From IMG/VR virus record IMGVR_UViG_3300025407_001511: a stretch of 15,349 nt of DNA. One strand, written 5' to 3'. Numbering within the stretch: the stretch's first letter is position 1; every line of letters starts with the position of its first letter. Positions 1,331-15,349 of this stretch are shown piece by piece. Under the pieces are notes generated by a model. It was not told the origin of the DNA. It did no database searches and saw only the letters and a list, made by a program, of their open reading frames with translations. The position numbers and the translations under genes were made by a program. Source of the DNA: a virus.

Positions 1331-1332
1331 AG

Positions 1333-1406
1333 CGACCTTGATGGGACTCGAACCCACGACCCCCACCGTGACAGGGTGGTGCTCTAACCAACTGAGCTAC
1401 AAGGCC
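1333..1406 (-). tRNA. trnD: tRNA-Asp, anticodon GUC.
   Basis: The reverse complement of 1333-1406 folds as a canonical cloverleaf. Acceptor stem is GGCCUUG/CAAGGUC with one G-U pair. D arm is GCUC-AGUUGGUUA-GAGC. Anticodon stem is CCACC/GGUGG with loop CUGUCAC, giving anticodon GUC. Variable loop is GGGUC. T arm is GUGGG-UUCGAGU-CCCAU (GGTTCGAGTCC box). Discriminator is G and no CCA is encoded. It is wedged between two coupled CDSs, with a 9-nt gap above and a 2-nt gap below. Confidence 0.9.
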
Positions 1407-3539: not shown

Positions 3540-4406
3540 CTACATACGCGGATACTTGAGCTTTTTAAACCGTTCGAGGCTCATTCCCTCATATCTACGG
3601 CACAAAGAGTCAAGTGAAATCTGCTGGATGTCATAACTACCGTTTTGGACACCATGCTTAACGACAATACCTCTAAAGTGAGCATTGCCTTGTGGTCCCT
3701 TGTAGTTTTCATCGTGCAGGTAACAAGCACCGGCTACAAGGCCATGCTGTGAGAACGCATCATTCTCATCTCTTCCACCATTTACGTAACGCATGCCATA
3801 AAGGAACGTTTGTTGGTGACCCATAGTAAATGAGTGGCCGATATTCTTCAGACGAGCATCAATCGTACCACCATAGGGGTTTCCCGTCATAGGGTTATAA
3901 AAGAAGTGACTGTAAGCTACACCATCAAGCCAAAGAATGTGCTTGAATGGGCTAACTCTCCAACCGCTACGGGCATAGTCAAGGTCATCTGTGCTAAATA
4001 GGCCATCAATCTGTGCATCCATCTCTGTTGCACGGTTGATACGATCTTCGTGGTTACCAAGAAGAATGTGACGCTCTGGGTTCCAGATAGCATGCTTAGA
4101 CTTACGCTTGTTTTCGTTATAGTCATAAAGAGGCTGGTTTAGGATGTGCCAGTGTTCATTGGCAGCTTCAATGTCTGCTTTGACACGACGACCCTCCATG
4201 CTCTTCTTACCCTTATCGTACATTGAAAGGGCTGGCATATCAGCGTGGTCACCAAGGTGAATGATCTTCACATCTTGGTTGTGGAACTCTTCTACAATAT
4301 AGTTACCGATCCAAGTGAGGTGGTCGGTTGGGACCCCATCTTTAGCTTGGGTGTCCGGGATAACGATGTGTGTTGCTGGGTCTTTCTCGACAGAGCTATT
4401 CGTCAC
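3540..4406 (-). CDS. Calcineurin-like metallophosphoesterase.
   Basis: 288 aa. Ordered metallophosphatase motifs are present: IVIPDTQ (motif I variant), IIHLGDHAD (GDxxD), LLGNHEDR (GNH[DE]), plus later His-containing motifs (GHSFTMGHQQ). GTG start at 4404-4406 with TAAGGAA 6 nt upstream. Confidence 0.7.
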   Translation of the reverse strand: MTNSSVEKDPATHIVIPDTQAKDGVPTDHLTWIGNYIVEEFHNQDVKIIHLGDHADMPALSMYDKGKKSMEGRRVKADIEAANEHWHILNQPLYDYNENKRKSKHAIWNPERHILLGNHEDRINRATEMDAQIDGLFSTDDLDYARSGWRVSPFKHILWLDGVAYSHFFYNPMTGNPYGGTIDARLKNIGHSFTMGHQQTFLYGMRYVNGGRDENDAFSQHGLVAGACYLHDENYKGPQGNAHFRGIVVKHGVQNGSYDIQQISLDSLCRRYEGMSLERFKKLKYPRM

Positions 4407-8330: not shown

Positions 8331-9410
8331 TTATTCCCAGCTGGTTGGTTTGTCATTGTTAGTTGAATTGAAACGATCTTCATTCAACAAATCAATTAAT
8401 CTATTGCTGCTACCAGTGATTGGTCGAGCTGGCGTTGGGAAGTTAGATATAGTTTGTGGGAAATTAAGCTCAAGGTTAATTCCTGCTCCAGGACCAGATG
8501 ACCCTTTTTCTGGCGTTTGCTTTGTAGGCATTGGTTCTTGACCAGTTTCAAGCTTAGTTTTCTGTTGTGGTGGGTTACTAGTCTCTTGCTCACTCTTAGT
8601 AGAAGTTTCTTCTTCAAGAGAAGGTTCTGGCATAGCTTCTGTTTTATCACCAATTGTTTTAGGAGCTGGCTGCCAAGTTGTGGGAGATGGTTGTGGTGTG
8701 CTAGGAGGAGTCTTTGATGGCTTACCAGGAACAGTGAAAGGTGGAACTGTGATTGGCTTAGTAGGAGCCAATGGGTGAGTCTCGAGAGGCATGATGCTAC
8801 CAACTACGGGGTTAGCAGGGCTTGCAAAGCTCTGTCCACCACCAGAATCTGGCGTATTGTTGATATCATTGCTATTGTCGCCATTTTCATTACCGCTTGA
8901 GTTGCTACTAGGCAAGTTCTTCAATGCATCGCTAAGGCCACCACCTTCTGCACCTGCAGCGGCCTCTCCAGCGCCAGCGACTGCTTCTCCAGCACCAAGA
9001 AGCTCTGGGATAGCAAGAAGAGGACCAGCAGTCACAATTGTGCTTGCTGTGACCATGCGAAGTTCCTTAGCAGCGAACCCCTTACCAGCTTCTGACTGGT
9101 AAACTTGGTTATCTGTCAATGCATAAGGAATAACGTTAACAGTTGCGTGCGCTTTGCGCAGCATTTCTGTTGCAATGCCTTGGTTTCGGTATTCTGGCTC
9201 GACGTAAACACCATCCATGATGTAGTTGCCACTAGCTTGCTTTTCAGCAGTGAAATAACCGATTCTTTCGTCTCCAACCATTGCTTCAACAAGAAGACCA
9301 GAGAACGTGCCACCAGTCTTGTATTGCATTGGGCCAACGTTAGCAACAATTCGAACCTTGTCACCTTGTTCTTCAAGGATCTCATTAAGTCTTGGTGGGA
9401 TAGTAGCCAT
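8331..9410 (-). CDS. GNAT-family N-acetyltransferase-like N-terminal domain fused to a long Gly/Ala-, Ser/Asn- and Pro/Thr-rich low-complexity C-terminal region.
   Basis: 359 aa. GNAT motif A is VYVEPEYRNQGIATEMLRKA (R-x-x-G-x-A acetyl-CoA pyrophosphate loop). Residues about 130-359 are low-complexity (AGAGEAAAGAEGGG..., PPSTPQPSPTTWQPAPK...). The ATG at 9408-9410 overlaps the upstream stop (TAATG). Confidence 0.5.
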   Translation of the reverse strand: MATIPPRLNEILEEQGDKVRIVANVGPMQYKTGGTFSGLLVEAMVGDERIGYFTAEKQASGNYIMDGVYVEPEYRNQGIATEMLRKAHATVNVIPYALTDNQVYQSEAGKGFAAKELRMVTASTIVTAGPLLAIPELLGAGEAVAGAGEAAAGAEGGGLSDALKNLPSSNSSGNENGDNSNDINNTPDSGGGQSFASPANPVVGSIMPLETHPLAPTKPITVPPFTVPGKPSKTPPSTPQPSPTTWQPAPKTIGDKTEAMPEPSLEEETSTKSEQETSNPPQQKTKLETGQEPMPTKQTPEKGSSGPGAGINLELNFPQTISNFPTPARPITGSSNRLIDLLNEDRFNSTNNDKPTSWE

Positions 9411-10964: not shown

Positions 10965-11155
10965 TAATCTTCTCCAAGGATCCAATCGGCTACTTCTTTA
11001 CTGCGTGAGTGTTCTTGTCCAATAGATGGCCCTTCTTGTCTACTCAGTTCAGAAATAATGTGTTTTTCTGCTTCAGTAGTGTTAGGGCATTGCAGTTTAG
11101 GCCAGCCATGGCATGAACAGCTTTCTGCTGCGTATCTTTTAGACCAATTACTCAT
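10964..11155 (-). CDS. Small protein, 63 aa; member A of the paralog set (MSNWSKRYAAESCSCHGW...).
   Basis: The ATG at 11153-11155 overlaps the HNH gene stop (ATGA). It shares its first 11 residues with B and C, and about 15 of 17 nt with B at the DNA level (AGATACGCAGC). Confidence 0.5.
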   Translation of the reverse strand: MSNWSKRYAAESCSCHGWPKLQCPNTTEAEKHIISELSRQEGPSIGQEHSRSKEVADWILGED

Positions 11156-11574
11156 TTGATGAGTCCTCTCACGTATTTTGCTGCCTCAAAGTCACTGTAA
11201 GCTGTGACGTGTTTGCCACCATGACCTCTGTGGTGGAAAAGGCATAGCCATTCCAGGTTTGTTGCGCTCTCTACCCATGCACCAACGGTGTCTGGGTCGC
11301 TAACGCCGGGGTAATCGACTTCGAGCCACTTAAGATCGACGCCATTCTGCAATGAGAACTCAATATGAGTGTGGTGAAGCTCCAAAGGGTGCTCAGAGTC
11401 GCACTCACTGAAGTCATTGCGGTGTTCACCGATAGCACATTTAGCTGTTGCCTTCGTTTTCTCACGGAAATGGTGAAAATCGACGTAATGTGGGTCATCT
11501 TCACGCTCTGGGTGAGGTGGATAGTGAACGGTGTAATGATGAGTGATGTTCTGGTCGTGTTCTTCGACGGTCAT
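11152..11574 (-). CDS. HNH-family endonuclease-like protein.
   Basis: 140 aa. Carries LELHHTHIEFSLQNG...NLEWLCLFHHRGHGG, matching the HNH core (HH...N...N-L-x-x-L-C-x-x-H-H), with upstream Cys (KCAIGEH...SECDSEH) for a zinc site. The ATG at 11572-11574 overlaps the upstream stop (TAATG). Confidence 0.5.
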   Translation of the reverse strand: MTVEEHDQNITHHYTVHYPPHPEREDDPHYVDFHHFREKTKATAKCAIGEHRNDFSECDSEHPLELHHTHIEFSLQNGVDLKWLEVDYPGVSDPDTVGAWVESATNLEWLCLFHHRGHGGKHVTAYSDFEAAKYVRGLIK

Positions 11575-11966: not shown

Positions 11967-12023
11967 GTTTTCCTTAGTTATATATATAAGAGGATTTTTT
12001 AAATTTTGTCAATAGATTTTAAG
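11959..12023. promoter_or_regulatory. Face-to-face sigma70-like promoters sharing a TATATATA -10 region. The minus-strand one is TTGACA(12012-12007)-N18-TATATA. The plus-strand one is TTGACA(11960-11965)-N17-TATATA(11983-11988).
   Basis: AT-rich 72-nt intergenic gap. Both -35 hexamers match consensus perfectly. The minus-strand promoter would drive the operon beginning with 11574-11966. The plus-strand promoter would run antisense into gene 12039-13154. Confidence 0.35.
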
Positions 12024-12038
12024 ATAAAACTTTAAAAT

Positions 12039-13154
12039 TTATTCGCCAGAGTAGCTATCATCAGCGTGAACAGCTCTATTTATAGCTGTTGAAGGACTGT
12101 AAAGGTGAGAAACACCCTCTCCACCTCTCGCACGATGACGTACTCTTGGTGCAACTACAGCTGCATGGTTGTCTTCGTCCTGTCTAAAGTTGACATGGTG
12201 GTTGATAATGGTCTGTTCAGCCTTCGTACCATACAAAACACGGTGGTGTGAACGTCTTCCGACCTTACCAAACTCTCCAGCTTCCTTAGAAACGGGGAAA
12301 CCAGCGAAATAAGCGGCTCTAATCTTGGGATCTTGAGTTCTTTTGGCTGCTTCTTCGTGGTGTTGCATGTCCCAAAGCTGGTTTGTGGGGTGAGTACTGT
12401 CATTTACAACGCAGTATGGGCAGAAACACTTAACAAAACGGGCAGTTTTACCCTGATCGATGACATTTTGCTCAACAGGATCGATAGCATCGTGCGTATT
12501 GCACATGTTATTGATGGTGTGGTTGAATGCGTGGTGCACTGCAAGGTCACCATGGGTGTGATCACTGACAGTTTTCATGGCATCTCGGTAGAACTTAGGG
12601 TCCTTGATGCCATTACGCTTACCCTCGTTGAATGCCATGATCGTTTCAATGTGCGATTGGCCCAAAGCTGAGAGTGGGTGGACCATCAAACGCTCACCAG
12701 TCTTTGCATTCACGTGTTCACCGGCACGGAAAGCACGATCATCCAGGTGGCCCTCTTCGCTGGGAGCAATCATCATAGTAGGTTGATGGATACCCTGCTC
12801 GAGCTTGTAAGGCTTACCAGTGGTCTTGTTGCGAACAGCAACGGTCATGTAGTCACTTGCGGTTTTAACGTTGGCAAGCTGCGAGTGAGCGCGACTGTGA
12901 TACCAGTCGCCCTTTTTGCTTTGCTTCAAGCCAAACAAACGCACTGCGTCAGGATTGGGCTCTTCGCCCTCACCAAGGCTACCTATGTAGTGATTAGCGG
13001 CTTTCTCAGCAGCATGAGGCACATGATAGTACTCAGGGTCTTCCTTGTGGGTGGCGTAGCCAGTACCCTCTTGGAAGATAAGCGTCATAGCGTTGGCAGG
13101 TCCGCCAGTCTTGAATTGCTTATCGTGTTTTGCAGCTTCTCTGCTGTTGAACAT
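12039..13154 (-). CDS. Hypothetical His-rich protein, 371 aa.
   Basis: Long ORF. ATG at 13152-13154 with AGGAG 8 nt upstream. Contains many His plus a CFCPYC motif. No confident family assignment from motifs alone. Confidence 0.55.
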   Translation of the reverse strand: MFNSREAAKHDKQFKTGGPANAMTLIFQEGTGYATHKEDPEYYHVPHAAEKAANHYIGSLGEGEEPNPDAVRLFGLKQSKKGDWYHSRAHSQLANVKTASDYMTVAVRNKTTGKPYKLEQGIHQPTMMIAPSEEGHLDDRAFRAGEHVNAKTGERLMVHPLSALGQSHIETIMAFNEGKRNGIKDPKFYRDAMKTVSDHTHGDLAVHHAFNHTINNMCNTHDAIDPVEQNVIDQGKTARFVKCFCPYCVVNDSTHPTNQLWDMQHHEEAAKRTQDPKIRAAYFAGFPVSKEAGEFGKVGRRSHHRVLYGTKAEQTIINHHVNFRQDEDNHAAVVAPRVRHRARGGEGVSHLYSPSTAINRAVHADDSYSGE

Positions 13155-13260
13155 AAGTTGTACTCCTAGTTAAGTTAAAACAGGCACCGCGCGTCACCGG
13201 CCCTAGACCCGATTCCGAATTTTCTTTTACCCTTATGTTATAAGGGGTTTAGACTCTTAG

Positions 13261-13926
13261 TTAGCAACCACCACGGCAAATCCATCCAGTACCGTATTCT
13301 TGACTTGGGTCCCAAACAATGTCTTGGGTGTTTCCACAGTTGTAGCAGTAGCGAGAATTGCCTGGGATGTGCCCATCCATAGGCTTATTTTCCCCCATTG
13401 AGTTATCGTTGGCGTAACGCTCAGCGAAAGAAGCACTCTTAGGCTTAAGTGGTGGCACATCGCGAACGTGCTTGTAGACTTGTGGGTCGTACTTAGTGTC
13501 TGGGTCTTGCATCATTTTCACTCTTGAATTAAGAGGAACGTTAGGATTTGTTACTTCTTTGCTAATGTTTGTCTGAGGAGCCTTGCTCTTTGTGCTTGTC
13601 TGCTCTGTGGGGAAATGCTTTTCCATAAGATCACTATAGTGTTCCACAAGGCTCTTTTGGTTAACGCCTGGTTGTGTGCGCTTCAGTACTTCTTGGTGCA
13701 TCTCATTAATTTTGCCAACGCCTTGCTGGAACTTCCCAATGCTGTCCATAACGTCATTGTGGTTATTACGGACTTCATCAACCATTCTTGCATTAGGGAC
13801 GTTAGGCTTGTTCTTTTCGTATTCATCACGCGTTTGGTATCTATTCTCAGCGATTCTAATCGCCGCCATTTTTGCATTGCCAAGTGAGTTCTGGTAGCTC
13901 TTTGACCAGTCGTTGAATTGTGCCAT
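13261..13926 (-). CDS. Hypothetical protein, 221 aa, with a C-terminal zinc ribbon (CYNCGN...WICRGGC) and an N-terminal NDWSKSY motif related to the A/B/C paralog leader.
   Basis: ATG at 13924-13926 with AAAGGG upstream. It is the first gene of the minus-strand block next to the divergent junction. Confidence 0.5.
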   Translation of the reverse strand: MAQFNDWSKSYQNSLGNAKMAAIRIAENRYQTRDEYEKNKPNVPNARMVDEVRNNHNDVMDSIGKFQQGVGKINEMHQEVLKRTQPGVNQKSLVEHYSDLMEKHFPTEQTSTKSKAPQTNISKEVTNPNVPLNSRVKMMQDPDTKYDPQVYKHVRDVPPLKPKSASFAERYANDNSMGENKPMDGHIPGNSRYCYNCGNTQDIVWDPSQEYGTGWICRGGC

Positions 13927-14479
13927 GGTGTAGCCCTTTGTAGATAGTAGAACGATTGCTATCCCCTATACCAAGAACTATATGTATTTACATTATTCTC
14001 TCTTTTTTTCTATCTACTTTAGTGCACCTAGTATTTCATACGTGGCCAAGGCCTCCGGCATTTTTAATTCTTACCAGTACGATCTCAACGCCTGCTCTAT
14101 CGAATACCCCATAGGGCTGCCCGCCATTTTTTAAAGGCGTTTCTATACGCTCCCATTGGGACCCCTATTGGCGAGCCTTACAGAGCCTTTTAGGCCCCTC
14201 TCAAGGCACTCCTCTAAAACCCTTTAGTTCTGGAAATGGCAAAACCTACCATCCTATTTCACGCCTTGGATTGCGTGTTAGTTACACGCTAGCAAAAGAT
14301 TATGAACTTCTTTGCGTCCTTGGGCACAATGTCCAAGTGAGGCTGAGAACTCATGGTCCTAGCAATCACCTGTATGTTGCTGAACTACAGCACCGTACAG
14401 CTGTGTGCGCAAACGTACTACTCAGTAGTGCGCGAACGTACGCAGCAACCCAACACCTATGCATTAGAAAGAGATTAAA
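13927..14479. other. Divergent non-coding junction of about 550 bp between the minus-strand and plus-strand gene blocks.
   Basis: No credible ORF. Positions 13960-14040 are about 25% GC with T-tracts. Positions 14040-14230 are about 52% GC and carry three imperfect CCC(A)T(A/T)(T/G)GG repeats (14107-14116, 14152-14160, 14163-14172). A 6-bp stem-loop GCGTGT-tagtt-ACACGC lies at 14273-14289. Confidence 0.5.
14404..14440 (+). promoter_or_regulatory. Two 14-bp direct repeats GTGCGC(A/G)AACGTAC (14404-14417 and 14427-14440) flanking the 13-bp palindrome ACTACT-C-AGTAGT; candidate operator or transcription-factor site 40-75 nt upstream of the first plus-strand gene.
   Basis: Read directly: ...gtgcgcaaacgtac tactcagta gtgcgcgaacgtac... 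The repeats match at 13 of 14 positions and each contains a GTAC palindrome. Confidence 0.35.
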
Positions 14480-14665
14480 ATGAAGCGTTTTCAGCTGATT
14501 TCCCTGCTCCTTGGTAGCTTTGCGTTCACGTTCGCAGTATCGTTCGTGAACACAATGATCTCGTGGTACACACCCATGGGGCAGGCACAGACCGTACTCA
14601 CGGTCTCGTTGTCGTTCACCTTCGTGGTGTTCGTGGCTGCAGTCCTGTACACAGCCAAGAAGTAG
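14480..14665 (+). CDS. Small membrane protein, 61 aa, with 2 predicted TM helices.
   Basis: ATG at 14480. Two hydrophobic stretches (LISLLLGSFAFTFAVSFV and VLTVSLSFTFVVFVAAVLY) and a KK C-terminus. Weak GAGA-type Shine-Dalgarno. It is the first gene on the plus strand after the junction. Confidence 0.4.
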   Translation: MKRFQLISLLLGSFAFTFAVSFVNTMISWYTPMGQAQTVLTVSLSFTFVVFVAAVLYTAKK

Positions 14666-14747
14666 TACGCAATGCCGAAATCATCACGTCGGGAGATGTT
14701 GTGGTCGTCGTAGGGTGATGCCTACGGCCTGATGATGGCAGTCAGCT

Positions 14748-14795
14748 AACTAAACCAGTCCTGAGGAGGACACTATGAAGGAAGTAACAACGATC
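14748..14795 (+). repeat. Copy 1 of a perfect 48-bp direct repeat spanning the Shine-Dalgarno, ATG and first 7 codons (AACTAAACCAGTCCTGAGGAGGACACTATGAAGGAAGTAACAACGATC).
   Basis: Identical to 15196-15243, 448 bp away. The flanks differ immediately outside the 48 bp. Confidence 0.85.
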
Positions 14796-15143
14796 GACGC
14801 TGCTAAGGCTTTGGTTGAGCACTACGCTGCTGCGGCTGAGCTCATGACTGCTGAGGCTAAGGCTGAGTACGAGGCTGCTTTGGCTGCGTACGAGGCTGTT
14901 GAGGCTAAGTACGAGGCTAAGCAGGACGCTGCTTGGGCTAAGCGTGACGCTGCTAAGGCTGAGTACTACGCTGCTCAGGCTGAGTTCAAGGCTGCCGAGG
15001 CTGAGTTCGACGATGCTTGGGCTGAGTACCACGCTGCTTTGGCTAAGTACGACGCTGCTTTGTCTAAGCCTGAGGTCAAGGCTGCTTGGGCTAAGTTCTA
15101 CGCTGCTATGGCTGAGCTCAACGCTGCTCAGGCTGAGCAGTAA
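14775..15143 (+). CDS. Acidic Ala/Glu/Lys/Tyr-rich heptad-repeat (coiled-coil) protein, 122 aa.
   Basis: A strong Shine-Dalgarno GAGGAGGA sits 7 nt upstream of the ATG. Aromatics (Y/F/W) recur every 7 residues (positions 32, 39, 46, 64, 71, 78, 85, 92) in an A-E-Y-x-A-A-x heptad. Net charge is about -13. The gene is about 58% GC with extreme GCT/GAG/AAG codon bias. The antisense ORF 14742..15032 is an artefact. Confidence 0.65.
   Translation: MKEVTTIDAAKALVEHYAAAAELMTAEAKAEYEAALAAYEAVEAKYEAKQDAAWAKRDAAKAEYYAAQAEFKAAEAEFDDAWAEYHAALAKYDAALSKPEVKAAWAKFYAAMAELNAAQAEQ
14850..15130 (+). repeat. About nine tandem copies of a 21-bp unit (consensus GCTGCTnnGGCTGAGTACGAG-like), in frame within the Ala-rich gene.
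   Basis: Copies read directly: ggctgagtacgaggctgc, ggctaagtacgaggctaagc, ggctgagtactacgctgc, ggctgagttcaaggctgc, ggctgagttcgacgatgc, ggctgagtaccacgctgc, ggctaagtacgacgctgc, ggctaagttctacgctgc, ggctgagctcaacgctgc. Confidence 0.7.
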
Positions 15144-15195
15144 CAGCTCGGTTCACAAGGGGTATGAGCTCCACCCCACCCAACGGGCTCAACCC

Positions 15196-15243
15196 AACTA
15201 AACCAGTCCTGAGGAGGACACTATGAAGGAAGTAACAACGATC
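15196..15243 (+). repeat. Copy 2 of the 48-bp translation-initiation cassette.
   Basis: Same 48 nt as 14748-14795, here heading the next gene. Confidence 0.85.
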
Positions 15244-15349
15244 AGCGGTTCCGTCTACCTCATCAATGAAGATGAGCAGATGTGGTGCCGGAAGTCAACT
15301 GCCCCTGTGCGCAAGTACGATAACGGGGAGTACGTCGACACCGCTCTGG
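15223..15349 (+). CDS. Hypothetical protein, 5' part only (MKEVTTISGSVYLINEDEQMWCRKSTAPVRKYDNGEYVDTAL...); continues beyond the window.
   Basis: The ATG at 15223 is preceded by the same GAGGAGGA ribosome-binding site. Its first 7 residues (MKEVTTI) are identical to the previous gene because of the 48-bp repeat. The open frame runs to the window edge. Confidence 0.55.
   Translation, partial: MKEVTTISGSVYLINEDEQMWCRKSTAPVRKYDNGEYVDTAL

What the first reader, a model, noticed from the sequence alone, without database searches (positions are those of the whole stretch)
13927..14479. Divergent junction with sharp compositional shift and short iterated motifs
Genes switch strand here. The left 100 bp are about 25% GC and T-tract rich, in a promoter or UP-element style. 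The next roughly 200 bp are about 52% GC and contain three CCC(A)T(A/T)(T/G)GG repeats within about 65 bp, paired CATTTTT(T)AA motifs (14058-14067 and 14125-14135) and a 6-bp stem-loop at 14273-14289. Everything to the right is GC-richer than the 14 kb to the left. This could be a boundary between early and late modules, a horizontally acquired module, or an origin or regulatory hub with iterons.
Basis: seen in the sequence. Interest (0 to 1): 0.5.

Follow-up and report, generated by a model that had tools for sequence, protein, structure and literature searches.

The report
Conserved phage divergent control region
This 553-base gap between two outward-facing gene blocks of an uncultured phage is non-coding DNA that is kept far better than the genes around it. 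It most likely holds the start signals and leader of the rightward genes, and it is also a place where related phages swap genes.

Summary

No ORF in the gap is conserved, and no Rfam family matches it. Thirteen related lineages from metagenomes carry the same gap. Their flanking proteins are only 22-60% identical, yet three blocks are nearly invariant:
- TTTACATT (13987-13994).
- A 20-nt motif, ACTTTAGTGCACCTAGTATT (14016-14035). It is always rightward. It occurs once or twice per genome and only in this gap. In relatives it is followed by a GC hairpin and a U-run.
- A core (14241-14315) of two boxes, separated by a spacer that has diverged almost completely but never gained or lost a base.

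A + strand RNA hairpin (14371-14399) is kept in four lineages. The window's copy is a mosaic of different lineage types. The two CATTTTT(T)AA motifs are the T-runs of two terminator-like modules of different origin. The genes downstream of the core differ from lineage to lineage.

Best reading: a divergent transcription-control region, made of a promoter/operator, an attenuator and a leader, at the head of a hypervariable operon. An iteron-type origin is not supported. Whether the core acts as RNA or as DNA is unresolved.

The parts
13927..13963 (-). 5' untranslated region of the leftward 221-aa gene, with the conserved block TAGAACGATTGCTATC (13948-13963) inside a small hairpin (GATAG...CTATC).
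   Evidence: The ORF starts at 13926. The block is identical in 4-7 of 12 other lineages and is visible in all lineages.
13966..13996 (.). Conserved block L, CTATACCAAGAAC...TTTACATTAT. TTTACATT (13987-13994) is nearly invariant. It is a candidate promoter or operator of the leftward operon. In some relatives the same block overlaps a + strand TTGCTT-N16/17-TATACT promoter-like site for a small-RNA candidate that the window lacks.
   Evidence: Conserved in 8-9 or more of 12 lineages, with alignments. It occurs once in the window. No sigma-70 match was called here. The function is inferred.
14016..14038 (+). Near-invariant 20-nt motif ACTTTAGTGCACCTAGTATT(TCA). It is a candidate rightward promoter with an embedded dyad (TTAGTGCACnTA) that could serve as an operator. 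TAGTAT is -10-like.
   Evidence: One match in the window at up to 3 mismatches, against 0.01 expected. It has the same orientation in every lineage, and most lineages carry two tandem copies. The exact pattern occurs only in this gap in family contigs of 27-123 kb. The 12-bp dyad is a perfect palindrome in copy 1 of L112 and L117. The promoter and operator roles are inferred.
14042..14067 (+). Terminator-like module a (lineage B/D type): a weak GC hairpin followed by CATTTTTAA.
   Evidence: 89% identical to L106 and 80% to L013 over this part. The orthologous hairpin plus U6-8 follows copy 1 of the motif in all ten lineages that have it and is called as a terminator in L117. In the window the hairpin is weak (-5.6 kcal/mol) and was not called.
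14068..14106 (.). Lineage-specific insert with no counterpart in any relative.
   Evidence: No conservation across this stretch. The only sigma-70-like hit of the scan (- strand, 14088-14060) lies here and is therefore probably a chance match.
14107..14139 (+). Terminator-like module b (lineage C/L115 type): CCCCATAGGGCTGCCCGCCATTTTTTAAAGGCG. It holds the first CCC..GGG motif and the second CATTTTTTAA.
   Evidence: It aligns to the module that directly follows the motif in L014 and L115. The predicted hairpin at 14094-14117 has -7.6 kcal/mol.
14152..14201 (+). C-rich, G-poor stretch with CCCATTGGGACCCCTATTGG (14152-14171) and TTTAGGCCCCTCT (14189-14201). R-G-R-CCCC units recur upstream of the second motif copy in relatives.
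   Evidence: 64 C against 35 G over 14027-14226 and GC skew -0.31. The pieces are conserved in 3-5 lineages. The function is unknown.
14214..14240 (+). Degenerate second copy of the motif (CTAAAACCCTTTAGTTCTGGAAATGGC), 9 nt shorter than the intact copy 2 of relatives.
   Evidence: Alignments. Conserved in 6-9 lineages. Where copy 2 is intact it lies exactly 35-36 nt upstream of CCATCC.
14241..14315 (+). Conserved core. It consists of Box 1 AAAACCTACCATCCTATT (14241-14258), GCCT (14263-14266), a variable spacer that includes the 6-bp stem-loop at 14273-14289, and Box 2 CAAAAGATTATGAACTTCTTTGC (14293-14315, inverted repeat AAAGA-N9-TCTTT).
   Evidence: 79-85% nucleotide identity to lineages whose flanking proteins are 52-61% identical. 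Thirteen distinct lineages all have exactly 41 nt between CCATCCTATT and TTAT, although the spacer sequence has diverged almost completely. Stop codons occur in all three + frames in several lineages. There is no Rfam match. Covariation in the Box 2 hairpin is not significant.
14371..14399 (+). RNA hairpin H3, UGUAUG-U-UGCUG-AACUA-CAGCA-C-CGUACA.
   Evidence: Kept in lineages A, B, F and C. 95.5% of cells are paired, against 14-59% when the partner is slid. Two pairs show compensatory changes. Several U-G pairs would be C-A mismatches on the other strand. Energy -11.8 kcal/mol. Only four sequences were available, so this is not statistically decisive.
14400..14446 (+). Long lineage-specific hairpin (18 bp, -27.1 kcal/mol), built from the direct repeat GTGCGC(A/G)AACGTAC around ACTACTCAGTAGT.
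   Evidence: Not conserved in relatives. It contributes much of the + strand folding signal of the gap (z -4.9, against -1.0 for the - strand).
14466..14665 (+). Ribosome-binding region and the 61-aa hydrophobic ORF, the first gene of the rightward operon in this lineage.
   Evidence: ORF. 77% amino-acid identity in lineage B. Absent at this position in lineages C, D and others.

Best explanation
The gap is the divergent transcription-control region of a clade of uncultured phages.

**Left part**
- It carries the 5' UTR of the leftward operon and probably its promoter/operator (TTTACATT block).

**Rightward signals, in order**
- A near-invariant 20-nt motif, read as a promoter with a -10-like TAGTAT and a dyad-symmetric operator in front of it.
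- One or two GC-hairpin/U-run modules that would attenuate or insulate transcription. They are strong in relatives and decayed in this lineage.
- A C-rich stretch.
- In most relatives, a second copy of the motif.
- Exactly 35-36 nt after that second copy, a core of two conserved boxes at a fixed distance from each other.
- A structured leader that runs to the first gene.

**Role in gene exchange**
- The genes behind this cassette differ from lineage to lineage.
- The cassette is kept while everything around it diverges, and it is itself a patchwork of lineage types.
- It therefore also serves as a homologous crossover point for swapping downstream cargo genes.

**Shown**
- The gap is non-coding.
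- The blocks are conserved and the motif has a fixed orientation.
- The motif is unique to this gap in each genome-scale contig.
- The box spacing is fixed.
- Terminator-like hairpins are present in relatives.
- The + strand hairpin H3 is kept in four lineages.
- The window's gap is a mosaic, and the downstream genes are variable.

**Inferred**
- The motif is a promoter/operator.
- The hairpins terminate transcription.
- The core acts on or in the rightward transcript.
For: - **Non-coding.** No ORF is conserved, and stops occur in all three + frames of the core in several lineages.
- **Conservation against flanks.** The 371-aa and 298-aa flanking proteins are 22-60% and 24-78% identical among lineages. 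The motif and the boxes are nearly invariant, and the core is 77-85% identical at the DNA level.
- **Motif.** One copy in the window against 0.01 expected. It always points toward the rightward genes, mostly as two tandem copies. In family contigs of 27-123 kb it occurs only in this gap.
- **Hairpin plus U-run after copy 1.** Present in all ten lineages that carry copy 1, with different stem sequences. It is tool-called as a terminator in L117, and a further + strand terminator upstream of copy 1 is called in L116 and L106.
- **Fixed geometry.** Copy 2 lies 35-36 nt before CCATCC. There are 41 nt between the boxes in all 13 lineages, although 36-46 were allowed in the search.
- **Strand.** The + strand folds better than shuffles, and better than the - strand, in the long-leader lineages. 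Hairpin H3 has compensatory and U-G pairs.
- **Mosaic.** 13927-14065 is B/D-like (80-89%), 14068-14106 is unique, 14103-14318 is C/L115-like (77-80%), and 14214-14411 is B/F-like (67-71%).
- **Variable cargo.** The distance from the core to the 298-aa gene is 348 to about 3000 nt, with different first genes.
- **Published analogue.** Composite promoter/stem-loop cassettes at variable loci are described in T4-type phages (PMC4122927).
Against: - No canonical sigma-70 promoter is called at the motif in the window or in relatives. The conserved part of the motif would lie in the spacer of any such promoter.
- A terminator about 6 nt after a promoter's -10 region is odd.
- In the window the hairpin/U-run modules are weak and were not called.
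- Covariation for the Box 2 hairpin is not significant, and the core does not fold better than shuffles. The core could therefore act as DNA, for example as two protein sites at fixed phasing, rather than as RNA.
- Part of the invariance of the boxes is by construction. Nine of the 13 lineages were found with a pattern that required them. Five lineages were found independently of the pattern (A, B, C, D, F).
- There is no expression data, and the host is unknown.
Confidence: 0.55

Rival explanations
1. The gap is a replication origin, alone or together with promoters. The unique motif copies would bind an initiator, the AT-rich tract would unwind, and transcription through the region would activate or prime replication, as at T7 or T4 origins. 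That comparison rests on my own knowledge.
For: - The motif occurs only here in genome-scale contigs.
- Most lineages have tandem copies.
- There is a 28% GC tract at 13960-14040.
- The region has hairpins and a strongly strand-biased stretch whose - strand is G-rich.
- The cumulative GC skew reaches its minimum at about 14400-14700.
Against: - There are only one or two copies, at variable spacing of 97-178 nt, so this is not an iteron array.
- The window has a single copy.
- The AT-rich tract is not the most AT-rich in the window.
- The skew minimum is equally explained by the switch in gene strand.
- No replication gene was identified nearby.
Confidence: 0.15
2. The gap encodes one or more free-standing non-coding RNAs rather than a leader. 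One option is a + strand structured RNA of about 300-440 nt, running from the motif to about 14450. Another is a - strand RNA that starts at the -10-like GATAAT/CATAAT inside Box 2 and ends at the bidirectional hairpin next to the motif.
For: - The + strand fold has z -4.9 and -6.6 for the core-to-ORF part.
- Hairpin H3 is conserved.
- Sigma-70-like hits on the - strand fall at Box 2 in three relatives.
- Relatives carry a separate small-RNA-like unit with its own promoter-like site and terminator next to the motif.
Against: - There is no terminator after the structured part in the window.
- In short-leader lineages a ribosome-binding site and a start codon follow Box 2 within 60-95 nt, which fits a 5' UTR.
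- The -35 of the - strand reading is not conserved, and its -10 loses the final T in three lineages.
- No Rfam family matches.
Confidence: 0.15
3. The gap holds the genome ends or a packaging site (terminal repeat, cos or pac). It would appear internal only because the assembly joined the ends.
For: - Several large family contigs end within a few hundred to a few thousand bases to the right of the core.
- The motif occurs only in this gap in each contig.
- The window's metallophosphoesterase has its closest relatives in phages of proteobacteria. I recall that some of these have terminal repeats and inward-pointing gene blocks. I did not check this.
Against: - The contig ends are scattered (55 nt, 769 nt, 2.3 kb, 2.4 kb and 4.3 kb from the gap in lineage C), not at one position. 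This is what strain-level variation in a hypervariable region would produce.
- At least one contig has the gap well inside it (L014).
- No terminase gene was identified nearby.
Confidence: 0.05
4. The gap is ordinary spacer DNA, and its motifs and compositional shift arose by chance.
For: - The individual short motifs are weak on their own.
- The promoter and terminator scans of the window are at background level.
Against: - Blocks are nearly invariant across 13 lineages whose flanking proteins are as low as 22% identical.
- A spacer that has diverged almost completely has no insertions or deletions.
- The motif has a fixed orientation and fixed geometry.
Confidence: 0.02

Closest known systems
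PeSL cassettes (promoter-early stem-loop) of T4-type phages (Arbiol et al. 2010, PMC2839356; Comeau et al. 2014, PMC4122927)
   Same: - Both are composite elements of a terminator-like stem-loop plus a promoter.
- Both are better conserved than the genes around them.
- Both sit next to insertions, deletions and replacements of small ORFs of unknown function.
- Both are proposed crossover points for modular exchange. Here the gap is a mosaic and the downstream genes vary.
   Different: - PeSLs are dispersed in many copies through hyperplastic regions and have near-consensus sigma-70 hexamers. Here the motif is confined to one gap, with one or two copies per genome, and has no clear -35/-10 pair.
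- In PeSLs the stem-loop lies upstream of the promoter. Here a hairpin plus U-run directly follows the first motif copy.
- PeSLs have no counterpart of the Box 1/Box 2 core.
Divergent early control regions of temperate phages, such as the lambda immunity region with operators overlapping divergent promoters and promoter-proximal nut sites (from my own knowledge)
   Same: - Both are intergenic regions between divergent operons.
- Both have repeated dyad-like sites overlapping presumed promoters.
- Both have a conserved promoter-proximal element in the leader at a fixed distance from the promoter.
- Both have terminators nearby.
   Different: - No repressor, Cro-like or N-like gene was identified.
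- No boxA or boxB sequence was recognised.
- There are one or two sites rather than three.
- Nothing here was tested functionally.
Late promoter with an immediately following terminator, read through by an antiterminator that is loaded at the promoter (lambda pR'-qut-tR' with Q; from my own knowledge)
   Same: - A conserved DNA element lies within or just upstream of the -10-like hexamer.
- A terminator follows very soon after it (copy 1 of the motif).
   Different: - The terminator begins about 6 nt after the motif, much closer than in the lambdoid cases.
- No Q-like gene is known here.
- The second motif copy has no terminator after it.

Membership tests
Sigma-70-type promoter | A TTGACA-like and a TATAAT-like hexamer 16-18 nt apart. 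| tested here: not met
   The consensus scan of 13700-14800 found one site, on the - strand at 14088-14060, inside the non-conserved insert. That is at or below the shuffle expectation. Nothing was called at the motif in L117, L116 or L106. By eye, copy 2 of L109 and L116 reads TTGGCC-N16/17-TAGTAT, a weak match that the window lacks.
Intrinsic (Rho-independent) terminator | A GC-rich hairpin immediately followed by a run of U on the transcribed strand. | tested here: inconclusive
   No + strand site was called inside 13927-14479, and the window hairpins are weak (-5.6 and -7.6 kcal/mol). Orthologous positions in relatives carry 4-6 bp GC stems plus U6-8. The site in L117 was called by the scan. 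In most lineages 2-8 nt separate the stem from the U-run, which is not canonical.
Iteron-type replication origin | Three or more direct repeats of about 17-22 bp at regular spacing, next to an AT-rich unwinding element. | tested here: not met
   The window has one copy of the only real repeat, and relatives have two, at spacings of 97-178 nt. The CCC..GG motifs belong to different conserved modules.
PeSL cassette | Many dispersed copies per genome in variable regions. | tested here: not met
   The exact-pattern scan finds the motif only in this gap in family contigs of 27-123 kb. Box 1 and Box 2 are single-copy in the loci examined.
PeSL cassette | A composite of stem-loop and promoter, adjacent to insertions, deletions or replacements between relatives. 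| tested here: met
   Hairpin plus U-run modules flank the motif copies. The genes downstream of the core, and their total length, differ among lineages. The gap is a mosaic. The promoter identity is inferred.
Any described RNA family (Rfam 15) | A score reaching the family's covariance-model threshold. | tested here: not met
   No match of any kind inside 13927-14479 at E up to 10. No match in the equivalent gap of nine relatives.
Protein-coding gene | An open reading frame kept in relatives. | tested here: not met
   All three + frames of the core carry stops in several lineages. The four window ORFs of 41-70 aa show only nucleotide-level echoes in the closest lineages. There is no - strand ORF of 40 aa or more in the gap.
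Hammerhead ribozyme type II (the side feature at 14673-14747, not the finding itself) | The conserved core (CUGAUGA, GAAA, cleavage triplet) within three helices, scoring at the Rfam gathering threshold. | tested here: inconclusive
   The window copy scores 31.5 bits against a threshold of 37 (E 4.9e-4), over the full model and with CUGAUGA and CGAAA present. Paralogues and orthologues score 36.7, 40.0, 38.3 and 37.5 bits.

The most novel reading that the evidence does not exclude
The Box 1 / fixed 41-nt spacer / Box 2 core, placed exactly 35-36 nt after the motif, may be a previously undescribed promoter-proximal element. It could act as RNA, like the put or nut antitermination sites, or as a DNA site for a phage factor. 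It would reprogramme RNA polymerase so that it reads through the hairpin-, ribozyme- and tRNA-studded cargo region. Its near-invariance would then make it the fixed 'socket' into which this phage clade plugs interchangeable genes.
Probability: 0.15. Interest if true: 0.6.

Novelty: new member of a known kind. Interest (0 to 1): 0.4.

Why it matters
**What it offers**
- Almost every protein of this clade of uncultured lake phages is of unknown function. This gap is the best-conserved feature found here. It gives a handle on how these phages are transcribed, and a clade-specific marker sequence.
- Near-invariant boxes, an indel-free spacer that has otherwise diverged almost completely, and variable genes downstream form a clear natural example of a conserved regulatory 'linker' at a module boundary where gene exchange happens.

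**If the core proves to be new**
- If the core turns out to be an antitermination or replication element of a new type, it would add a new class of cis-acting signal.

**As it stands**
- This is an ordinary kind of thing, a divergent phage control region, in an unusually well-resolved and unusually constrained form.

Tried and rejected
**Searches for relatives**
- Megablast of 12000-15349 against deposited phages: no match.
- Protein-pattern scan of IMG/VR with the 221-aa protein: none.
- tblastn of the 298-aa protein against phages: none.
- All exact-protein look-ups for lineage A returned 100% identical DNA, which is useless for comparison.
- A 17-mer and two two-block patterns scanned in IMG/VR gave almost only chance hits, apart from lineage C.
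- The genome-contig scan gave one chance hit, in an Anoxybacteroides genome, so there is no host clue.

**Tests of the elements**
- Rfam on the gap and on nine relatives: nothing in the gap.
- Coding hypothesis: rejected.
- Box 2 hairpin. My first structure string was off by one column. In the correct register, covariation is not significant. A flank-shuffle test of helix extension gave Stouffer Z -1.4. There is no strand preference by energy.
- The core does not fold better than shuffles.
- Complements of the Box 2 loop and of Box 1 were looked for as possible pairing targets: none.

**Alternative readings considered by eye and dropped**
- Sigma-54, Bacteroidota-type, T7/SP6-type and N4-hairpin promoter readings of the motif. 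None has a convincing match, and a phage-polymerase promoter should recur along the genome, which this motif does not.
- The DnaA-box and IHF-site resemblance of Box 2 (7 of 9 and 8 of 9 positions, by eye). It was not pursued because the G variant of Box 2 breaks both.

**Context of the flanking genes**
- Structure predictions of the 371-aa and 298-aa proteins had mean pLDDT 42.7 and 32.4. That is too low for fold searches.
- PDB profile searches were uninformative.

**Technical**
Full report
**What is at the coordinates**

The 553 bases at 13927-14479 lie between a 221-aa ORF on the - strand (start at 13926) and a 61-aa hydrophobic ORF on the + strand (start at 14480). Both genes are real, because lineage B keeps them.

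- CATTTTT(T)AA at 14059-14067 and 14125-14134.
- The 6-bp stem-loop at 14273-14289.
- CCCATAGGG at 14108-14116, CCCATTGGG at 14152-14160 and CCCCTATTGG at 14163-14172.

The composition figures need correction:
- The first 100 bp are 34% GC (28% for 13960-14040), not 25%.
- The next 200 bp are about 50% GC.
- The main peculiarity of that stretch is strand bias: 64 C against 35 G, skew -0.31.
- The 870 nt to the right are 54.7% GC, against 45.6% on the left. That is above any left-hand window of the same size.

**It is not coding and not a known RNA**

- Rfam gave no match in the gap at E up to 10.
- It gave no match in the equivalent gaps of nine relatives.
- ARAGORN found no tRNA there.
- The ORFs of 41-70 aa inside the gap are not conserved.
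- In the aligned core, all three + frames carry stop codons in several lineages.

**Relatives**

The window matches no deposited phage. The same genome occurs at 100% identity in many metagenome samples.

Distinct lineages came from two routes:
- Homologues of the flanking proteins gave lineages B (L013), C (L014 and others), D (L106) and F (L108).
- One pattern scan of metagenome contigs gave nine more.

This makes 13 distinct versions of the gap. Across them the flanking 371-aa protein is 22-61% identical. The 298-aa protein on the right is 24-78% identical.

The gap behaves differently from its flanks. Pieces of it are 77-89% identical at the DNA level, and some blocks are nearly invariant.

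One caveat applies. The pattern required CCATCCTATT and TTATSAACTTCTTT. Their invariance in the nine pattern-derived lineages is therefore by construction. The five lineages found without the pattern (the window's lineage A and the four reached through proteins) share these blocks as well.

**Anatomy, left to right on the + strand**

1. **13927-13963.** The 5' UTR of the leftward gene, with the conserved block TAGAACGATTGCTATC.
2. **13966-13996.** Block L, ending in the near-invariant TTTACATT.
3. **14016-14038.** The motif ACTTTAGTGCACCTAGTATT.
   - It occurs once in the window, against 0.01 expected.
   - It always has the same orientation.
   - In most relatives it occurs as two tandem copies 97-178 nt apart.
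   - A scan of all IMG/VR contigs for the exact pattern found it in family contigs of 27-123 kb only in this gap. All other hits were unrelated chance matches.
   - It contains the dyad TTAGTGCACnnA, which is a perfect 12-bp palindrome in copy 1 of two lineages, followed by the -10-like TAGTAT/AAGTAT.
4. **Hairpin and U-run after copy 1.** About 6 nt after the motif, each of the ten lineages that carry copy 1 has a GC hairpin with its own stem sequence, then a run of six to eight U. The simple terminator scan calls it in L117. It also calls a further + strand terminator just upstream of copy 1 in L116 and L106.
5. **The window's two versions of that module.**
   - 14042-14067 is of the B/D type.
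   - 14068-14106 is a 39-nt insert with no counterpart in any relative.
   - 14107-14139 is of the C/L115 type.
   - Both hairpins are weak here (-5.6 and -7.6 kcal/mol) and were not called.
6. **14152-14201.** A C-rich stretch with CCCATTGGGACCCCTA and TAGGCCCCTCT, conserved in three to five lineages.
7. **14214-14240.** A degenerate second motif, 9 nt shorter than the intact copy.
8. **14241-14315.** The core: Box 1, GCCT, a spacer, and Box 2.
9. **14318-14446.** Stable + strand hairpins.
10. **From 14466.** The ribosome-binding site and the first gene.

**The core**

- Where copy 2 is intact, it lies exactly 35-36 nt upstream of CCATCC.
- The roughly 30 nt in between have diverged to near-random similarity without a single insertion or deletion. 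This points to long divergence under a strict spacing constraint, not to recent transfer.

I could not settle whether the constraint is on RNA or on DNA:
- Box 2 is an inverted repeat (AAAGA-N9-TCTTT).
- The changes seen in its 5' arm within the five inner pairs are mostly A-to-G (four of the six changed sequences). These would keep G-U pairs on the + strand RNA.
- In-register covariation is not significant. 58 of 500 shuffles reach the observed score.
- Helix extension beyond the conserved part is not better than shuffled flanks (Stouffer Z -1.4).
- The two strands fold equally well there.
- The core as a whole does not fold better than shuffles.

**Evidence for a + strand RNA downstream of the core**

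- The whole gap folds with z -4.9 on the + strand and -1.0 on the - strand.
- In the long-leader lineages the stretch from the core to the first gene has z -6.6, -3.5 and -6.0 on the + strand. The - strand values are -2.4, -0.9 and -4.0.
- Hairpin H3 (14371-14399) is kept in lineages A, B, F and C. 95.5% of its cells are paired, against 14-59% for slid partners.
- H3 has two compensatory pairs and several U-G pairs that the other strand could not form. Four sequences are too few for significance.

**Mosaic structure and variable cargo**

The window's gap is a patchwork:
- 13927-14065 is closest to B and D (80-89%).
- 14103-14318 is closest to C and L115 (77-80%).
- 14214-14411 is closest to B and F (67-71%).

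Downstream of the core the lineages carry different first genes. The distance to the conserved 298-aa gene ranges from 348 to about 3000 nt. In the window's lineage that interval holds:
- the 61-aa ORF;
- an alanine-rich 122-aa ORF;
- two further small ORFs;
- three hammerhead-like ribozymes;
- a tRNA-like gene.

Lineage C has none of these. The compositional step to the right of the gap therefore reflects lineage-specific cargo.

**Interpretation**

The simplest reading is a divergent transcription-control region. The rightward side consists of a promoter/operator motif, attenuating or insulating hairpins, and a conserved promoter-proximal core and leader. It sits at the head of a hypervariable operon, and the conserved blocks double as crossover points.

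The closest published analogue is the PeSL promoter/stem-loop cassette of T4-type phages (PMC4122927). Those cassettes are dispersed in many copies and have clear sigma-70 hexamers. This motif is confined to one gap and has no clear hexamer pair.

The rivals are set out in the Rival explanations section: an origin of replication, free-standing non-coding RNAs, or a genome terminus. An iteron-type origin is not supported. Contig ends near the gap are scattered rather than fixed, as expected from assembly breaks in a variable region.

**What did not work**

- The flanking proteins gave no informative family, structure or PDB match. The early/late question therefore stays open.
- The only host hint is that the window's metallophosphoesterase (3540-4406) resembles those of phages of proteobacteria.

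Noticed in passing
window 14673-14747 (+); also L007 7323-7385 and 9190-9252 (to the right of the window's end), L014 3038-3099, L013 2998-3060, L111 1691-1753 and 2093-2167, L106 3570-3632: Type II hammerhead ribozyme candidates sit between genes of the rightward operon. The window copy scores 31.5 bits (threshold 37, E 4.9e-4) over the full model, with CUGAUGA and CGAAA present. Relatives reach 36.7-40.0 bits. By my reading of the alignment, the predicted cleavage site (GUC/A, near 14742) lies about 32 nt upstream of the start codon of the 122-aa gene. The operon transcript may therefore be cut into separate messages.
   Followed up: partly
window 14748-14795 and 15196-15243: An exact 48-nt direct repeat covers the ribosome-binding site and the first seven codons (MKEVTTI) of two successive genes. 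The first copy directly follows the hammerhead candidate. This looks like a duplicated gene-start cassette.
   Followed up: partly
window 14775-15143 (+): A 122-aa protein consists almost entirely of alanine-rich heptad-like repeats (AEYEAALAAYEAVEAKYEAK...). It has no family match. Lineage D has a different 67-aa alanine-rich ORF directly behind the core.
   Followed up: no
L007 7724-7794 (about 540 nt beyond the right end of the window) and L013 4477-4547: A tRNA-like gene scores 57-58 bits against the Rfam tRNA model, but ARAGORN cannot assign an anticodon ('tRNA-???'). By my reading the anticodon loop has six bases instead of seven. It is conserved in lineages A and B just upstream of the 298-aa gene.
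   Followed up: no
L109, L116, L014, L115, L106 (between the TTTACATT block and motif copy 1); absent from the window: About 110 nt are inserted in some relatives. The insert carries a promoter-like TTGCTT-N16/17-TATACT, a CA-rich start (ACCAAACAAACAA), a hairpin and a tool-called terminator (CCCCTC...GAGGGG plus TTTTCT). It is a candidate small RNA of about 80 nt, highly conserved among the lineages that have it.
   Followed up: partly
window 11967-12038 (- strand): This is the most AT-rich intergenic stretch of the window (22% GC). It contains a perfect TTGACA followed 18 nt later by TATATA, upstream of the 130-aa gene. The scan's rules did not call it, because the second hexamer lacks the final T.
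   Followed up: partly
window 1332-1406 (-): A tRNA-Asp (GTC) gene lies at the end of the leftward gene block.
   Followed up: no
window 3540-4406 (-), 8331-9410 (-), 11152-11574 (-): These are the few annotatable proteins of the leftward block. They are a metallophosphoesterase (PHROG 221, E 5e-41; 42-46% identical to proteins of phages of Vibrio, Pseudomonas, Acinetobacter and Methylophilales hosts), a GNAT acetyltransferase domain and a weak HNH match. None is a virion protein, so the leftward block may not be a 'late' module.
   Followed up: partly
L111 (upstream of the core): In this lineage both TTTAGT-like elements upstream of the core read TTGAGT (TTTGAGTGCC and CTTGAGTTCT). The same base change in two sites suggests that one factor reads both, or that gene conversion acted between them.
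   Followed up: no
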